From the sequence record PZ386974.1: a DNA stretch of 64,000 nucleotides; one strand, written 5' to 3'. The stretch is from a phage. The position numbers and the translations under genes were made by a program. Below the pieces are notes generated by a model, which saw only the letters and a program-made list of their open reading frames with translations, ran no database searches and was not told where the DNA came from. Positions 42,226-48,572 of the stretch are shown here, piece after piece (the stretch's first letter is position 1; each line of letters opens with the position of its first letter).

Positions 42226-43182
42226 TTATTTGAAAGGTTTTACCATATGGAAATTTTGTTTGAAACGTTTGACGTAATCGTCATGTCCTAAACTTTGGTA
42301 CATACTTACTACTTTGCTGTAGTTTTCCCAGGCATATTCACGGAACCAACCGGAGGTGATGCTTGTACAGACTTTTTCCAATGCCATCATAAAACTGGCT
42401 TCAGGGTTAATTTTAAAGTCATTAGGAATTTGAGAACGTTCTAATGCTAGTACACATGATTCTTCGTATACGCCGGCCAATTTGACCATTTCTGGTAATG
42501 ATTCGAACTTCTCGCGTGAGGTCATGACTTCAGAACCATCTTTCATATAAAATGTATACGCTGGACGGTCTGTTAGTGCAATGGCTTCATGAATAGTATC
42601 ATGGTCATATGTATAGATGTCATCTTTAAAGAACGCACTTTTAGAAGTGTCAAGAACAGGGTGAGCATAGTTCAAGGTTTCTTTCTGGCGTTTCAGCATA
42701 ATTTCAGTAAGTTCATCGTTCAGCGTAACACCTTTACCACGAAGATACTGAATATGGTTCATAGTCTTTAAAAAGAATGGGTTATTTTTCTTGAAACGAT
42801 GAGACATCTTAATTGCAAGACATATCTCAGGAGTTGCCCAGTAAAACCCGTTCAAACGGTCTTTAGTCAAATTTTTCTTGGCGTATTTTAAAAGGTCATA
42901 AGAAGACGTGAAATCTTCAGGAGTGAGTTCACCGACTAATTCACGGACATTAGTGATTGCCGGAACGATATATGCTTCAAAATGAGTTTCGCGTCCATTA
43001 TGGAAGCATTTGAAAACTTGGACATCAGGGTTATCTTGGTGAACATATACACCCATCATTTGATTTTTGAATGCATTCCAAGAACATTGGTCCGCAATAA
43101 AGTCCCAGTCACTATTTTTGATAGCGTTAGAATCAATAAGACCGTGATAGTGAAGTGCACGAGAACCAATAACTAACATCAT
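42226..43182 (-). CDS. hypothetical protein (318 aa)
   Basis: ORF. Confidence 0.55.
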   Translation of the reverse strand: MMLVIGSRALHYHGLIDSNAIKNSDWDFIADQCSWNAFKNQMMGVYVHQDNPDVQVFKCFHNGRETHFEAYIVPAITNVRELVGELTPEDFTSSYDLLKYAKKNLTKDRLNGFYWATPEICLAIKMSHRFKKNNPFFLKTMNHIQYLRGKGVTLNDELTEIMLKRQKETLNYAHPVLDTSKSAFFKDDIYTYDHDTIHEAIALTDRPAYTFYMKDGSEVMTSREKFESLPEMVKLAGVYEESCVLALERSQIPNDFKINPEASFMMALEKVCTSITSGWFREYAWENYSKVVSMYQSLGHDDYVKRFKQNFHMVKPFK

Positions 43183-43210
43183 AATATTTTCCTCGGATTA
43201 ATTCATTAAC

Positions 43211-43462
43211 TTAAATTTCACGACATGCGATATTATATTCATCCCAGAGGTCATCGTGTGAAGCCTCTACCAATGGAACGATTGTACCGTTTATGTCTTC
43301 ATTATAAGGGCAAATTGTACAGTGCGCATCTTCGAATCGGATGCCTTTGTGTTCAGATTTTTTATAACGCATATCGAATATCTTTGCAAACTTTTCACGA
43401 GTAATGGTTTTACCAACCACTTTGGTTCCGATACTTTCGTAATAAATCATTGTGGACTCCAT
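43211..43462 (-). CDS. hypothetical protein (83 aa)
   Basis: ORF. Confidence 0.5.
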   Translation of the reverse strand: MESTMIYYESIGTKVVGKTITREKFAKIFDMRYKKSEHKGIRFEDAHCTICPYNEDINGTIVPLVEASHDDLWDEYNIACREI

Positions 43463-43470
43463 TTGTTTTG

Positions 43471-43508
43471 ATAGGACTACTATAACATAGCCCTATCTTG
43501 TTGTAAAC
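43471..43508 (-). promoter_or_regulatory. early-type promoter GTTTAC-N18-TATAGT with inverted repeat ATAGGAC/GCCCTAT
   Basis: Member of the ATAGGAC-type element family. Confidence 0.45.
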
Positions 43509-43512
43509 TGTT

Positions 43513-43710
43513 TTAGCAAGAATAACTAGATGATACCCAGCCTTGAACAGTGATACTATTGTGGGATAATGAGATAGCGTCCTGGAGATTCAGACCTGCG
43601 TTATCTTCAATCCACAATGTAACTTCTTCACGCTCTTCGGTTGCAATTTGGAACAGGTTTTCCAGAGCAGCTACTGCCGTACGTACAGCACAATCTAATT
43701 CACGAGACAT
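43513..43710 (-). CDS. small protein with conserved C-terminal ...QGWVSSSYSC (65 aa)
   Basis: Shares C-terminal G-W-V-[AS]-S-S-x-x-C with the next two ORFs. Confidence 0.5.
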   Translation of the reverse strand: MSRELDCAVRTAVAALENLFQIATEEREEVTLWIEDNAGLNLQDAISLSHNSITVQGWVSSSYSC

Positions 43711-43719
43711 ATTGTTTCC

Positions 43720-43992
43720 TTAGCAAGTGTGAGAAGATGCTACCCAACCACCGGTTTCGAGGCTCAGGTTGTAGTCGTATTGATAAACGTCAGCCCATTC
43801 AGCATAACCGTTTTTTGTACAACGTTCAAGATCGGCTTTAAGCTGTCCGGGTGAATGATAGGTTCCACCCATACCATAAGCTGGATACAAGTCGAATGTT
43901 GTGTTTTGTTTATCAGCAATTTCTTTGGCAGCCTCAATAGCTGCATAGATTTTTGCTACAGCTTCAGCCAGCTCGGTTTGTTCTTTAGACAT
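43720..43992 (-). CDS. small protein with conserved C-terminal ...GGWVASSHTC (90 aa)
   Basis: Paralogous C-terminus. Confidence 0.5.
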   Translation of the reverse strand: MSKEQTELAEAVAKIYAAIEAAKEIADKQNTTFDLYPAYGMGGTYHSPGQLKADLERCTKNGYAEWADVYQYDYNLSLETGGWVASSHTC

Positions 43993-44001
43993 AATGATTC
44001 C

Positions 44002-44307
44002 TTAGCACAACGCAGAAGACGAAACCCAAGCACCTTCAGTAATAACGTAACCATTACCTTCACGCTTAACATCGCCACCATTATTTTCAATTTCGTTTTT
44101 CATCCACTGGGATACGATTTCACCCTTAGGATAATAAGTACGGCCGCTACCATAATCACCTACAGAAAACGATACTGCATATTGGTCTGCGATCTTTGTT
44201 GCTTCTTCTTCGATACGTTCAGCTTGATTCAGAAGTTTATAAATTGCATCTGAAGCGGATTTGGCATCATTAAACTCTGGTACTTTAATTTCAATAATCT
44301 TACTCAT
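44002..44307 (-). CDS. small protein with conserved C-terminal ...GAWVSSSALC (101 aa)
   Basis: Paralogous C-terminus. Confidence 0.5.
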   Translation of the reverse strand: MSKIIEIKVPEFNDAKSASDAIYKLLNQAERIEEEATKIADQYAVSFSVGDYGSGRTYYPKGEIVSQWMKNEIENNGGDVKREGNGYVITEGAWVSSSALC

Positions 44308-44405
44308 TTTCTACATTCCTTAATAAAGTTTTCGATTGTTTCATTTTCACGTCTAGCTAGGAGTTCATTATAACTAATCATTTGAGAAGCGTAAACAGTA
44401 TAAAT

Positions 44406-44828
44406 TCAGTTCAGGCTTTTGCATCTTATCTCCTTAACGAATTCCATAGCTTCTTCGTATTCATACTTTTTAACAGCTTCATCATACTGAGCTTGGGCTT
44501 TTGCGCACTGAACTTTCCATTCTCTTAATCGGGCTCTGTGATGACGGCCTTGGTACCAATATCCCACCCAGTTAATAGGCATTAATAAAAATGGCACAAT
44601 AAACGACCCGGCTATAATAAGTAAAAACACTGCATCAGACGATATAACTTCACTAGAATCTAAAACAGCTCCTATAATCATAAAGATTAAAAATGCTAAA
44701 GCTAAAATAGGGCCAAATAGTACTTCATTTGGGATTAATTTACGCTTATATTCATACGCCCAGGGCTTACTTGGCATGTATAGGGTTGGCTTTGACATAT
44801 TCTCTACATTCCATAATAAATTGCTCAA
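44406..44828 (-). CDS. membrane protein (start may be internal)
   Basis: Two TM helices; the track start overlaps the upstream gene by ~60 nt. Confidence 0.45.
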   Translation of the reverse strand: MSNLLWNVENMSKPTLYMPSKPWAYEYKRKLIPNEVLFGPILALAFLIFMIIGAVLDSSEVISSDAVFLLIIAGSFIVPFLLMPINWVGYWYQGRHHRARLREWKVQCAKAQAQYDEAVKKYEYEEAMEFVKEIRCKSLN

Positions 44829-45384
44829 GGATTAAATTGTTAGTGAAATTAGGACTAACAACCATAGTTTCATAAAGCGCATCAATAGCACTTAAAGCAT
44901 CAACTCTTTTAAGCAAAGGCTTGCCTTCATACATAGTTTCAGAATCGATGATTAACGTAAAGTAATATTTTTTATTATCGACTAGAACTTCTGTATCGAT
45001 ATAAAACATATTAGACCTCAGAAGCTTATCTCTAAAACCATAATAATCTTCTGAACGTTCACTGATATATTCCAATTCGGTGTTTAAACAACAAACAGAC
45101 CACGTAGGAGCGACGAAATCAGTGAATCTAATATCATGGTCTGCGACTAGTTTAGCAATAGCTCCGATATCATGAATCATAATACCTGGGGCTAATAAAG
45201 ATTTTCGGCGATTTGCGTATTCAGTTGTCTCATAAGAAGCTGACCAGTACCATTTACGTCCAGTTGCAACATATCGTAATGAATCAACTAAAGACGTAGG
45301 TGGATTTACCTTATCTCGGAACTCTTCGAACATTGAGTCAATATCATTATTTTGGTTTCGCATGTTAACTCCTTTATTATCCAA
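44767..45384 (-). CDS. hypothetical protein (205 aa)
   Basis: ORF. Confidence 0.5.
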   Translation of the reverse strand: MDNKGVNMRNQNNDIDSMFEEFRDKVNPPTSLVDSLRYVATGRKWYWSASYETTEYANRRKSLLAPGIMIHDIGAIAKLVADHDIRFTDFVAPTWSVCCLNTELEYISERSEDYYGFRDKLLRSNMFYIDTEVLVDNKKYYFTLIIDSETMYEGKPLLKRVDALSAIDALYETMVVSPNFTNNLILEQFIMECREYVKANPIHAK

Positions 45385-48415: not shown

Positions 48416-48492
48416 TGGTCGAGACAGAAGGATTCTAACCTTCAACCTACGGATTAGAAGTCCGTTGCTCGATACAATTGAGCTATGCCTCG
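48416..48492 (-). tRNA. tRNA-Arg (anticodon UCU), CCA encoded
   Basis: Manually folded cloverleaf: 7-bp acceptor stem (one G-U), D-stem GCTC/GAGC, anticodon stem ACGGA/TCCGT with loop CTTCTAA, T-stem GAAGG/CCTTC, discriminator A + CCA. Confidence 0.8.
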
Positions 48493-48498
48493 AATATA

Positions 48499-48572
48499 TG
48501 ACCCAGACCAGATTCGAACTGGTAACCTTTCCCTTATGAGGGGACTGCTGCTAACCATTGAGCTACAGGGCC
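48499..48572 (-). tRNA. tRNA with CAU anticodon (Met or lysidine-type Ile)
   Basis: T-arm ACCAG-TTCGAAT-CTGGT, anticodon loop CTCATAA with U33/A37, acceptor stem with one mismatch; CCA not encoded. Confidence 0.6.

What the first reader, a model, noticed from the sequence alone, without database searches (positions are those of the whole stretch)
43513..44307. Tandem trio of small proteins sharing a C-terminal G-W-V-[AS]-S-S-x-x-C tail
Three adjacent ORFs (65, 90 and 101 aa) have unrelated bodies but end in ...QGWVSSSYSC, ...GGWVASSHTC and ...GAWVSSSALC. A conserved C-terminal decapeptide with a terminal Cys on divergent bodies suggests a shared targeting, processing or modification signal, analogous to the N-terminal tag on the IPs.
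Basis: seen in the sequence. Interest (0 to 1): 0.55.

Follow-up and report, generated by a model that had tools for sequence, protein, structure and literature searches.

The report
Cys-tailed small proteins partnering a nucleotidyltransferase
Three adjacent small phage genes belong to one uncharacterised family marked by an invariant C-terminal W-x-S-S-S-x-x-Cys tail, and such genes almost always sit just upstream of a nucleotidyltransferase gene, which points to an undescribed two-part phage module.

Summary
Three minus-strand ORFs (65, 90 and 101 aa) end in GWVSSSYSC, GWVASSHTC and AWVSSSALC, and this tail occurs nowhere else in the six-frame translation of the window. The claim of unrelated bodies is only partly right. 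ORF2 and ORF3 are homologues (PHROG 899). The ORF1 body is not detectably related once the tail is removed.

The tail is the signature of a phage-restricted family of small acidic proteins with no Pfam or PDB relative. Of 149 proteins examined, 132 end exactly in W-x-[SAP]-S-S-x-x-C.

Arrays of 1-5 such genes lie directly upstream, on the same strand, of a DUF7277/DUF7275 gene (here 42226-43182). This holds in 76 of 85 enzyme-centred loci. Tail ORFs number 158 upstream against 2 downstream. The arrangement recurs in very different phage lineages.

That protein has the Pol-beta nucleotidyltransferase catalytic signature, and its predicted fold is closest to the MenT/AbiEii tRNA-modifying toxins.

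Best reading: the trio are cognate partners of this enzyme, either regulators or Ser-acceptor substrates, and the tail is the element that engages it. The genetic coupling is shown. The physical mechanism is inferred.

The parts
44002..44307 (-). ORF3, 101 aa (orthologue of RB69ORF139c/138c). Full-length family member: N-terminal helix, GDYGSGRTYYP block, tail AWVSSSALC.
   Evidence: (PHROG 899, E 1.8e-22); AlphaFold2 model with mean pLDDT 91
43720..43992 (-). ORF2, 90 aa. Paralogue of ORF3 with an AYGMGGTYHSP block and tail GWVASSHTC.
   Evidence: (PHROG 899, E 9.8e-19)
43513..43710 (-). ORF1, 65 aa (orthologue of RB69ORF136c, PHROG 4882). Helix plus strand body without the YGxGG block; tail GWVSSSYSC. 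The body is not detectably homologous to ORF2/ORF3.
44005..44028 (-). Tail of ORF3 (W94-C101)
43723..43746 (-). Tail of ORF2 (W83-C90)
43516..43539 (-). Tail of ORF1 (W58-C65)
44367..44395 (-). Sigma-70/T4-early-like promoter match (TTTACG-17-TATAAT) upstream of ORF3. Consensus match only.
   Evidence: the total number of promoter-like sites in the region is not above the shuffle expectation
43479..43507 (-). Second promoter-like match (TTTACA-17-TATAGT) between ORF1 and the 83-aa ORF. Consensus match only.
43211..43462 (-). 83-aa ORF (PHROG 3723, unknown function) lying between the trio and the enzyme. Conserved only in close relatives, so probably not a core part of the module.
42226..43182 (-). 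318-aa predicted nucleotidyltransferase: DUF7277 (residues 2-101; invariant G6-S7, D25-x-D27, E69) plus DUF7275 (residues 120-305; invariant His/Asp/Cys cluster). It is the conserved downstream partner gene of the tail family.

Best explanation
The trio is a tandem array of paralogous genes, probably expressed early, in an RB69-like (Mosigvirus) phage. They belong to a phage-restricted family of small acidic proteins.

The typical family architecture is a long N-terminal amphipathic helix, then a beta-strand, then usually a Y-G-x-G-G-T-Y-Y hairpin, then an acidic linker that often carries W-x-S-S repeats. The proteins end in the invariant W-x-[S/A/P]-S-S-x-x-Cys-COOH.

These genes form one module with the gene two positions downstream (42226-43182). 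That gene encodes a Pol-beta-fold nucleotidyltransferase (DUF7277+DUF7275) whose predicted structure is closest to the MenT/AbiEii tRNA nucleotidyltransferase toxins.

Shown: the family exists, the tail is invariant, the family is restricted to phages, and tail genes are coupled to the enzyme gene in a fixed direction, whatever the surrounding genes.

Inferred: the tail is the part that docks onto the enzyme. Its Ser hydroxyls would lie at or near the NTP site, and the acidic body would lie in the RNA-binding cleft. The small proteins would then act in one of two ways. They could control the enzyme, as the small upstream MenA antitoxins control MenT. Or they could be its protein substrates, nucleotidylylated or phosphorylated on the tail serines. 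Having several paralogues per phage favours the substrate or adaptor version slightly. The role of the terminal Cys (thiolate plus free carboxylate) is unknown. One possibility is a metal or thiol contact with the invariant His/Cys cluster of DUF7275.
For: Family and tail.
- An exhaustive profile search found 147 cluster representatives at E <= 0.001, nearly all 67-143 aa, with the profile ending at the last residue of the protein.
- Of the 149 proteins held at that point, 132 end exactly in W-x-x-S-x-x-x-C and 9 more carry one extra residue.
- In a 90-sequence alignment the only invariant columns are W94, S97, S98 and C101.
- The family is acidic: median pI 4.5, median net charge -8.

Coupling seen from the small-protein side.
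- The enzyme gene lies 2 bp to about 1.6 kb downstream in Mosigvirus, Dhakavirus, Marfavirus, Kanagawavirus, Mosugukvirus, Ceceduovirus, Otagovirus, Phapecoctavirus, an Erwinia jumbo phage and eight metagenomic contexts with unrelated flanking genes.
- There is one exception, L020.

Coupling seen from the enzyme side.
- 76 of 85 loci, and 28 of 32 enzyme clusters at 70 % identity, have at least one member upstream on the same strand (78 loci and 30 clusters with looser tail patterns).
- Strict-tail ORFs number 158 upstream on the same strand, 2 downstream and 0 on the opposite strand, with equal DNA scanned on each side.
- Genus counts in the phage database match almost one to one: Escherichia 253 vs 260, Aeromonas 59 vs 59, Enterobacter 34 vs 36, Klebsiella 34 vs 35, Shigella 18 vs 18.

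Enzyme.
- Invariant G6-S7, D25-x-D27 and E69 lie on the expected strands.

Precedent from the literature.
- MenA1 is a 68-aa helical protein that forms a heterotrimeric complex with two MenT1 molecules and inhibits the enzyme (PMC10435456). It also induces phosphorylation of an active-site Thr (PMC11375011).
Against: - There is no physical evidence of interaction. No co-fold or co-evolution analysis could be run.
- The AlphaFold model of ORF3 puts W-V-S in a confident beta-strand (pLDDT about 88), so the tail may be mainly structural.
- The enzyme family is larger than the tail family (2212 clusters at 90 % identity). More distant enzyme homologues in roseophage, Streptomyces and Gordonia phages have no recognisable tail genes nearby.
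- One family member (L020) sits next to an unrelated 314-aa gene.
- In the window an 83-aa ORF and a promoter-like site separate the trio from the enzyme, so they may not be co-transcribed.
- In MenA1 it is the helix, not the C-terminus, that matters for neutralisation (PMC10435456). The analogy therefore does not explain the invariance of the tail.
Confidence: 0.55

Rival explanations
1. The tail is simply the best-conserved structural element of a small autonomous domain: its last beta-strand and cap. The proteins act on their own, for example as acidic inhibitors or nucleic-acid mimics of a host target. Their position next to the nucleotidyltransferase gene would then reflect inheritance of an accessory-gene cassette and not joint function.
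For: - The AlphaFold2 model places residues 93-96 in a strand and 97-100 in a short helix at high confidence.
- ORF2, ORF3 and most family members share a homologous body.
- The family is strongly acidic, like known phage DNA or RNA mimics.
- A promoter-like site separates the trio from the enzyme.
Against: - The same order and strand are kept in about 30 of 32 enzyme clusters, in genomic neighbourhoods that otherwise share nothing (DNA polymerase/RecA, PNKP/Rnl1, PhoH/HNH, Band_7, helicase/primase).
- Gaps to the enzyme gene are often only 1-60 bp.
- The tail also occurs on bodies that the tail-trimmed profile matches only marginally or that the family HMM does not detect.
- The body varies freely while W, S, S and C do not.
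Confidence: 0.25
2. One reading: the tail is a sorting or processing tag analogous to the N-terminal capsid-targeting sequence of the T4 internal proteins. It would direct the proteins into the virion or to a protease.
For: - A shared terminal decapeptide occurs on several small proteins.
- Internal-protein genes (IpI, IpII) lie in the same genome region.
Against: - No protease or structural gene co-varies with the family. The constant neighbour is a nucleotidyltransferase.
- The family occurs in phage lineages unrelated to T4, such as Otagovirus and Phapecoctavirus.
- The tail is at the extreme C-terminus and lacks anything like the gp21 cleavage motif.
- The promoter-like elements are of the early type (weak evidence).
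- No virion proteomics data were found.
Confidence: 0.05
3. The proteins are precursors or scaffolds for Ser/Cys chemistry of the RiPP type. This could be a lanthionine or aminovinyl-cysteine ring between the third Ser and the C-terminal Cys (S-x-x-C-COOH spacing as in epidermin), or oxidative chemistry on a C-terminal Cys.
For: - The spacing S-x-x-C-COOH, with an invariant Ser and an invariant terminal Cys.
- Several 'precursor' genes precede one enzyme gene, as in RiPP clusters.
- My recollection of the epidermin and AviCys pathways, which was not tested here.
Against: - No dehydratase, cyclase, flavin decarboxylase, radical-SAM or MNIO gene appears among the neighbours in any locus with Pfam labels.
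- The partner enzyme has a nucleotidyltransferase fold.
- The proteins are well-folded 65-140 aa domains, not leader-core peptides.
- Tail variants with shorter spacing (W-D-S-S-T-C, W-N-S-S-D-C) would break a fixed ring size.
Confidence: 0.05

Closest known systems
MenA/MenT (and AbiEi/AbiEii) nucleotidyltransferase toxin-antitoxin pairs
   Same: - A Pol-beta-fold nucleotidyltransferase gene is preceded on the same strand by a gene for a small partner protein.
- MenA1 is 68 aa and mostly one long helix (PMC10435456), like the N-terminal half of the tail family.
- Regulation in this family involves a Ser/Thr hydroxyl placed next to the bound nucleotide (PMC11375011).
   Different: - There is no sequence membership. 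The enzyme hits Pfam DUF7277/DUF7275 only, not DUF1814, and no PADLOC model.
- The C-terminal domain has its own invariant His/Asp/Cys set.
- The partners come in arrays of 1-5 paralogues.
- Their invariant feature is a C-terminal W-x-S-S-S-x-x-C tail that MenA and AbiEi proteins are not described as having in the papers read here.
- The system is encoded by lytic phages and is essentially absent from bacterial genomes (5 hits in 185,579 species, all MAG contigs).
RlaP (PF10127; T4 NrdC.11), the RNA-ligase-associated Pol-beta nucleotidyltransferase
   Same: - Both are phage-borne Pol-beta nucleotidyltransferases often found near RNA-repair genes. Rnl1, PNKP, Rnl2, metallophosphoesterase and DNA ligase lie within a few kb in several loci.
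- RlaP adds one or two NMPs to RNA 3' ends (PMC12776372).
   Different: - The enzyme does not hit PF10127.
- I found no report of Cys-tailed small partners for RlaP.
- The RNA-repair neighbourhood is frequent but not constant.
PHROG 899 / PHROG 4882 (phage protein clusters of unknown function)
   Same: ORF2 and ORF3 are members of PHROG 899, and ORF1 is a member of PHROG 4882.
   Different: These are automatic clusters with no description. Neither the tail signature nor the link to DUF7275 is recorded there. The tail unites the two PHROGs and several further ones, for example PHROG 23943.
MNT-HEPN type VII toxin-antitoxin pairs and GlnD/GlnE-type protein nucleotidylyltransferases
   Same: In these systems a Pol-beta-fold enzyme nucleotidylylates a hydroxyl side chain of a partner protein. 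This is the chemistry proposed here for the tail serines. The comparison rests on my own knowledge and was not tested.
   Different: The acceptor in those systems is Tyr, and the partner proteins and domain architectures are unrelated. No sequence or structural match was seen here.

Membership tests
Cys-tail small-protein family (PHROG 899 and allies) | C-terminus W-x-[S/A/P]-S-S-x-x-C as the last residues | tested here: met
   All three ORFs; 132 of 149 family proteins.
Cys-tail small-protein family (PHROG 899 and allies) | Shared body: N-terminal helix ending in ...IADE..., a beta-strand, and a Y-G-x-G-G-T-Y-Y block | tested here: inconclusive
   Met for ORF2 and ORF3 (tail-trimmed HMM E 3e-19 and 1e-26). 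Not met for ORF1 (E 0.5; hhalign probability 2.6 %), although ORF1 has a similar helix-strand layout.
Cys-tail small-protein family (PHROG 899 and allies) | Located upstream, on the same strand, of a DUF7277/DUF7275 gene | tested here: met
   The enzyme gene is at 42226-43182, 331 bp downstream of ORF1. This is the general rule.
MenT/AbiEii (DUF1814) toxin with upstream antitoxin | Pol-beta nucleotidyltransferase core with hG[GS] ... D-x-D ... third carboxylate | tested here: met
MenT/AbiEii (DUF1814) toxin with upstream antitoxin | Sequence membership of Pfam DUF1814 (motifs III and IV) | tested here: not met
   The Pfam scan at E <= 0.1 returns only DUF7275 and DUF7277. No PADLOC hit.
MenT/AbiEii (DUF1814) toxin with upstream antitoxin | Enzyme is toxic, adds nucleotides to tRNA 3' ends, and is neutralised by the upstream gene product | not testable with these tools
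   Needs expression and tRNA 3'-end sequencing.
RlaP (PF10127) | Match to PF10127 | tested here: not met
RlaP (PF10127) | Operonic association with RNA ligase genes | tested here: inconclusive
   Rnl1, Rnl2 or PNKP lie within about 5 kb in L007, L009, L014, L016, L019, L022, L027 and L028. They are absent from the window's neighbourhood and from L017, L021 and L031.
RiPP precursor (lanthipeptide or AviCys type) | Adjacent dehydratase, cyclase or LanD-type decarboxylase genes | tested here: not met
   No such Pfam family appears among the called neighbours in any locus, and none in the window region scanned.
RiPP precursor (lanthipeptide or AviCys type) | Short leader-core peptide without a stable fold | tested here: not met
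   The ORF3 model has mean pLDDT 91 with a defined alpha/beta fold.
T4 internal-protein-type capsid targeting tag | N-terminal targeting sequence removed by the prohead protease; protein present in virions | not tested
   The motif here is C-terminal. No proteomic data were found.

The most novel reading that the evidence does not exclude
The W-x-S-S-S-x-x-Cys tail is a genetically encoded acceptor tag. The neighbouring phage nucleotidyltransferase would covalently nucleotidylylate the tail serines (or the terminal cysteine), or use them as a protein primer, on a set of diversified small acidic proteins. Those proteins would then act on host targets, for instance as mimics of tRNA 3' ends. That would be a previously unknown phage protein-tagging system built on a MenT-like enzyme.
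Probability: 0.2. Interest if true: 0.85.

Novelty: new variant of a known kind. Interest (0 to 1): 0.68.

Why it matters
Both components are currently 'hypothetical proteins'. The enzyme is in two Pfam DUFs, and the small proteins are in no curated family.

The module is widespread in large lytic phages of Enterobacteria, Aeromonas, Pseudomonas, Acinetobacter, Xanthomonas and Erwinia, and in many uncultured phages. It is essentially absent from bacterial genomes.

The enzyme's nearest structural relatives are toxins that block translation by extending tRNA 3' ends. The module often sits among RNA-repair and anti-defence genes (Rnl1, PNKP, Acb1, Gad2). It is therefore a good candidate for a new host-takeover or counter-defence mechanism centred on tRNA.

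The invariant tail gives an unusually sharp experimental handle. Point mutants (W, SS, C) and a simple mass measurement of a C-terminal peptide would show whether a nucleotidyltransferase can be directed to, or controlled by, a short C-terminal Ser/Cys motif.

Tried and rejected
- **Known-family searches on the trio.** Pfam, NCBIfam, PADLOC and PDB sequence searches gave nothing meaningful.
- **Public annotations.** 'Sulfurtransferase' refers to the neighbouring e.4 ORF and has no Pfam support. 'Tail completion protein', 'Ig-like', 'prohead assembly scaffold' and 'HNS-dependent protein' appear in single records and have no support. All were rejected.
- **The search for related loci with the small-protein alignment.** It failed because no stretch was conserved enough to seed. 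I replaced it with direct locus retrieval and enzyme-centred scans.
- **L020.** Its adjacent 314-aa gene is not a hidden enzyme homologue (hhalign probability 0.65 %), so L020 is kept as a true exception.
- **ORF1 body.** Profile-profile comparison after trimming the tail found no homology to the family.
- **Literature.** Searches for RB69ORF139c, RB69ORF13x and DUF7275 returned no papers, and a search on C-terminal cysteine motifs in phage small proteins returned nothing relevant.
- **RlaP.** It was considered for the enzyme and rejected as a family assignment because the enzyme does not hit PF10127.
- **Sulfur-relay idea (TusE/DsrC-like C-terminal Cys arm).** It was dropped once the only 'sulfurtransferase' lead proved spurious.
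- **Not attempted.** A degenerate-DNA scan of whole collections for the tail alone, because the expected chance matches ran to thousands.

Full report
**Context.** The window is from an RB69-like T-even phage (genus Mosigvirus). It is 97-98 % identical over this stretch to many Escherichia and Shigella phages. The trio lies in the accessory-gene region between lysozyme e / nudE and the tRNA genes. It corresponds to RB69ORF136c and RB69ORF139c/138c, with ORF2 between them. tRNA-Arg and tRNA-Met are at 48416-48572.

**Observation.**
- Three minus-strand ORFs of 65, 90 and 101 aa occupy 43513-44307. They end in QGWVSSSYSC, GGWVASSHTC and GAWVSSSALC.
- In the six-frame translation of the whole window, W-[VIL]-[AST]-S-S-x-x-C-stop occurs three times, all here.
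- The tails use different synonymous codons, so selection acts on the peptide.
- The genes are 9 nt apart. The TAA stop of each upstream gene is part of the TAAGGA ribosome-binding site of the next.

**Are the bodies unrelated?** Not for ORF2 and ORF3.
- BLASTP aligns them over 73 residues (30 % identity, E 3e-6).
- Both match the C-terminal part of PHROG 899.
- Both have a Y-G-x-G-x-T-Y block.
- ORF1 (PHROG 4882) lacks that block. After trimming the last nine residues, a family HMM no longer recognises ORF1 or its orthologues from four other genera (E 0.1-0.9). A profile-profile comparison gives 2.6 % probability.
- The trio is therefore two clear paralogues plus one protein that is either extremely diverged or an independent body with the same tail.

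**The family.**
- An exhaustive HMMER profile search of 1.84 billion representatives found 147 proteins at E <= 0.001. Nearly all are 67-143 aa, and the profile ends at the protein's last residue.
- 132 of the 149 proteins in hand end in W-x-x-S-x-x-x-C. At position -6 the residues are S 92, A 28, P 10. At -4, S occurs in 129 of 132. W at -8, S at -5 and C at -1 are fixed by the pattern that selected these proteins; their invariance is shown independently by the alignment below.
- Nine further proteins carry one extra residue after the Cys.
- In a 90-member alignment, W, S, S and C are the only invariant columns. The mean column identity is 22 %.
- Members are acidic: median pI 4.5, median net charge -8.
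- About a fifth carry additional W-x-S-S repeats in the acidic linker.
- An AlphaFold2 model of ORF3 is confident (mean pLDDT 91). It has a 29-residue helix, a small sheet, and W-V-S in the last strand followed by a one-turn helix.
- No Pfam, NCBIfam, PADLOC or PDB sequence relative exists.

**The key finding: a constant neighbour.**

In the window, an 83-aa ORF and then a 318-aa ORF (42226-43182) follow ORF1 on the same strand. The 318-aa protein is Pfam DUF7277 + DUF7275 and PHROG 2141, function unknown.

Homologues of it lie just downstream of tail-bearing ORFs in:
- JS98, Klebsiella F48, Enterobacter Q7622, Pectobacterium PM2 and Aeromonas AS-zj;
- Pseudomonas phiPsa381 (Otagovirus) and Escherichia tuntematon (Phapecoctavirus);
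- the Erwinia jumbo phage Hallingskeid.

Starting from diverse metagenomic family members, seven of eight distinct contexts again showed the enzyme gene 2 bp to about 1.4 kb downstream. Their flanking genes have nothing in common: DNA polymerase/RecA/DnaB; Rnl1/PNKP; AAA/HNH; DNA ligase; PhoH/HNH with Acb1; Band_7. The exception is L020, where the adjacent 314-aa gene is unrelated.

Starting from the enzyme, I examined 80 IMG/VR loci plus the only 5 hits in 185,579 bacterial and archaeal species genomes, all of which are MAG contigs:
- 76 of 85 loci have at least one family or tail ORF upstream on the same strand. The number is 78 if shorter tails such as ...NWDSSTC and ...GWNSSDC are accepted.
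- By enzyme clusters at 70 % identity, 28 of 32 have one (30 of 32 with looser tails).
- Arrays contain 1-5 genes. The median gap to the enzyme is 346 bp, and it is often under 100 bp.
- Strict-tail ORFs number 158 upstream on the same strand, 3 overlapping the over-called enzyme start, 2 downstream and 0 on the opposite strand. The DNA scanned was 319 kb upstream and 329 kb downstream.
- Genus-level counts of tblastn hits for ORF3 and for the enzyme in 50,697 phage records are almost identical for Escherichia, Aeromonas, Enterobacter, Klebsiella and Shigella.
- Some tail-bearing ORFs in these arrays (52, 139 and 146-159 aa proteins, and the ORF1 group) are not recognised by the family HMM. 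A tail-trimmed profile matches the phiPsa381 147-aa protein only marginally (E 1.5e-4). The tail, not the body, is what tracks the enzyme.

**What the enzyme is.**
- An alignment of 39 homologues (47-75 % identity to the window protein) has invariant G6-S7, D25-x-D27 and E69. This is the Pol-beta nucleotidyltransferase signature.
- The C-terminal domain is very highly conserved, with invariant H128, H174, D193-H194-D195, H198, C243 and C272.
- The AlphaFold2 model is confident (pLDDT 93) and puts the catalytic residues on the expected strands.
- By sequence it is not DUF1814 and not RlaP/PF10127. RlaP is the RNA-ligase-associated enzyme that T4 encodes as NrdC.11 (PMC7824862, PMC12776372).
- RNA-repair genes (Rnl1, PNKP, Rnl2, metallophosphoesterase, DNA ligase) and tRNA genes are frequent but not constant wider neighbours.

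**Mechanism.**

Shown: a phage-restricted two-component module in which one to five small acidic proteins with an invariant W...SS...C-COOH end are encoded immediately before a MenT-like nucleotidyltransferase.

Inferred: the tail is the element that engages the enzyme. There are two concrete versions.
- (a) Regulator. This follows MenA1, a 68-aa helical protein that inhibits MenT1 as a heterotrimeric complex and induces phosphorylation of an active-site Thr (PMC10435456, PMC11375011).
- (b) Substrate or adaptor. The tail serines would accept NMP or phosphate, with the acidic body occupying the RNA cleft.

The multiplicity and diversification of the bodies next to a single enzyme fits (b) somewhat better. 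The MenA1 precedent does not explain why the C-terminus is the invariant part.

The terminal Cys may contact the invariant His/Cys cluster of DUF7275. This is speculation.

My confidence that the genetic coupling reflects joint function is high. My confidence in a direct tail-enzyme contact is moderate, and in either specific version it is low.

**Rivals.**
- A purely structural tail with hitch-hiking synteny remains possible. The model's confident strand supports it. The context-independent, directional linkage and the presence of the tail on non-homologous bodies argue against it.
- RiPP-type Ser/Cys chemistry is unsupported, because no such enzymes are ever adjacent and the proteins are folded domains.

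**Limits.**
- Promoter calls are consensus matches, and their number is not above the shuffle expectation.
- No expression data were found.
- No co-folding could be run.
- Distant enzyme homologues in roseophage and actinophages lack recognisable tail genes.

**Verdict.** The finding leads to an undescribed and widespread phage module that can be tested directly.

Noticed in passing
window 44002-44307; RB69 NC_004928 69737-70040: In the RB69 reference genome the ORF3 orthologue is split into RB69ORF139c (71 aa, ending ...SQWYEK) and ORF138c. The tblastn match comes in two pieces. This is a frameshift or a sequencing error in the reference, and most relatives have the intact 101-aa gene.
   Followed up: partly
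window 44308-44900: Compared with many close relatives (for example SA79RD and F27), the window lacks about 240 bp between ORF3 and e.5. Where those phages have separate e.3 and e.4 ORFs, the window has one 140-aa two-transmembrane ORF (44406-44828). Phages moha and G2469 share the window's version.
   Followed up: partly
public records matching window 43200-44900: Several deposited annotations in and around the module look spurious. 'Sulfurtransferase' for e.4 has no Pfam support. ORF2 orthologues are called 'tail completion protein'. An ORF1 orthologue is called 'Ig-like domain-containing protein'. The enzyme is called 'prohead assembly scaffold protein' or 'HNS-dependent protein'. Only the Acinetobacter phage records call the enzyme 'putative nucleotidyltransferase'.
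   Followed up: yes
window 43711-43722 and 43993-44004: The TAA stop of ORF3 and of ORF2 is the first half of the Shine-Dalgarno sequence (TAAGGAA) of the next gene, 9 nt before its ATG. This suggests translational coupling within the trio.
   Followed up: no
L018 11139-12071; L024 7304-7765: In two metagenomic phage contigs the module sits beside known anti-defence genes. Acb1 lies directly after the enzyme in L024, and Gad2 lies about 4 kb downstream in L018. This hints that the module resides in counter-defence islands.
   Followed up: no
L011 3942-4992: In a marine phage contig, three of the ORFs within about 1 kb upstream of the enzyme end in Cys: an 81-aa ORF (...GEWESSGC), a 146-aa ORF (Pfam Phage_T4_Y00F, ...EEAQKC) and a 44-aa ORF (...HGKWC). 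The last two lack the W-x-S-S part.
   Followed up: partly
L031 6479-6715; L107 (63-aa ORF): Natural variants have Tyr in place of the terminal Cys (...GWISSGEMY, ...WSPSSESY). They occur inside otherwise normal arrays. They may be decaying copies, or they may show that Cys is not essential in every paralogue.
   Followed up: no
window 43211-43462: The 83-aa ORF between the trio and the enzyme (PHROG 3723) has a H-C-x-x-C ... C pattern. It is conserved only in close relatives (JS98, Q7622), and other phages have unrelated small ORFs at this position.
   Followed up: partly
L029 5347-7325; window 48416-48572: The DUF7275 homologue of Gordonia phage WilliamBoone lies 1.3 kb from a large tRNA gene cluster. 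In the window, tRNA-Arg and tRNA-Met lie about 4 kb from the trio. Together with the frequent Rnl1/PNKP neighbours, this gives the enzyme a tRNA-related flavour.
   Followed up: partly
window 42226-43182, residues 213-313: There is a weak, sub-threshold NCBIfam match of the DUF7275 domain to the HisJ-family histidinol phosphatase (PHP-type metal phosphoesterase; E 0.002, 17.9 bits against a cut-off of 90). With the invariant His/Asp cluster this could hint at a metal-dependent second activity, but it may be chance.
   Followed up: no
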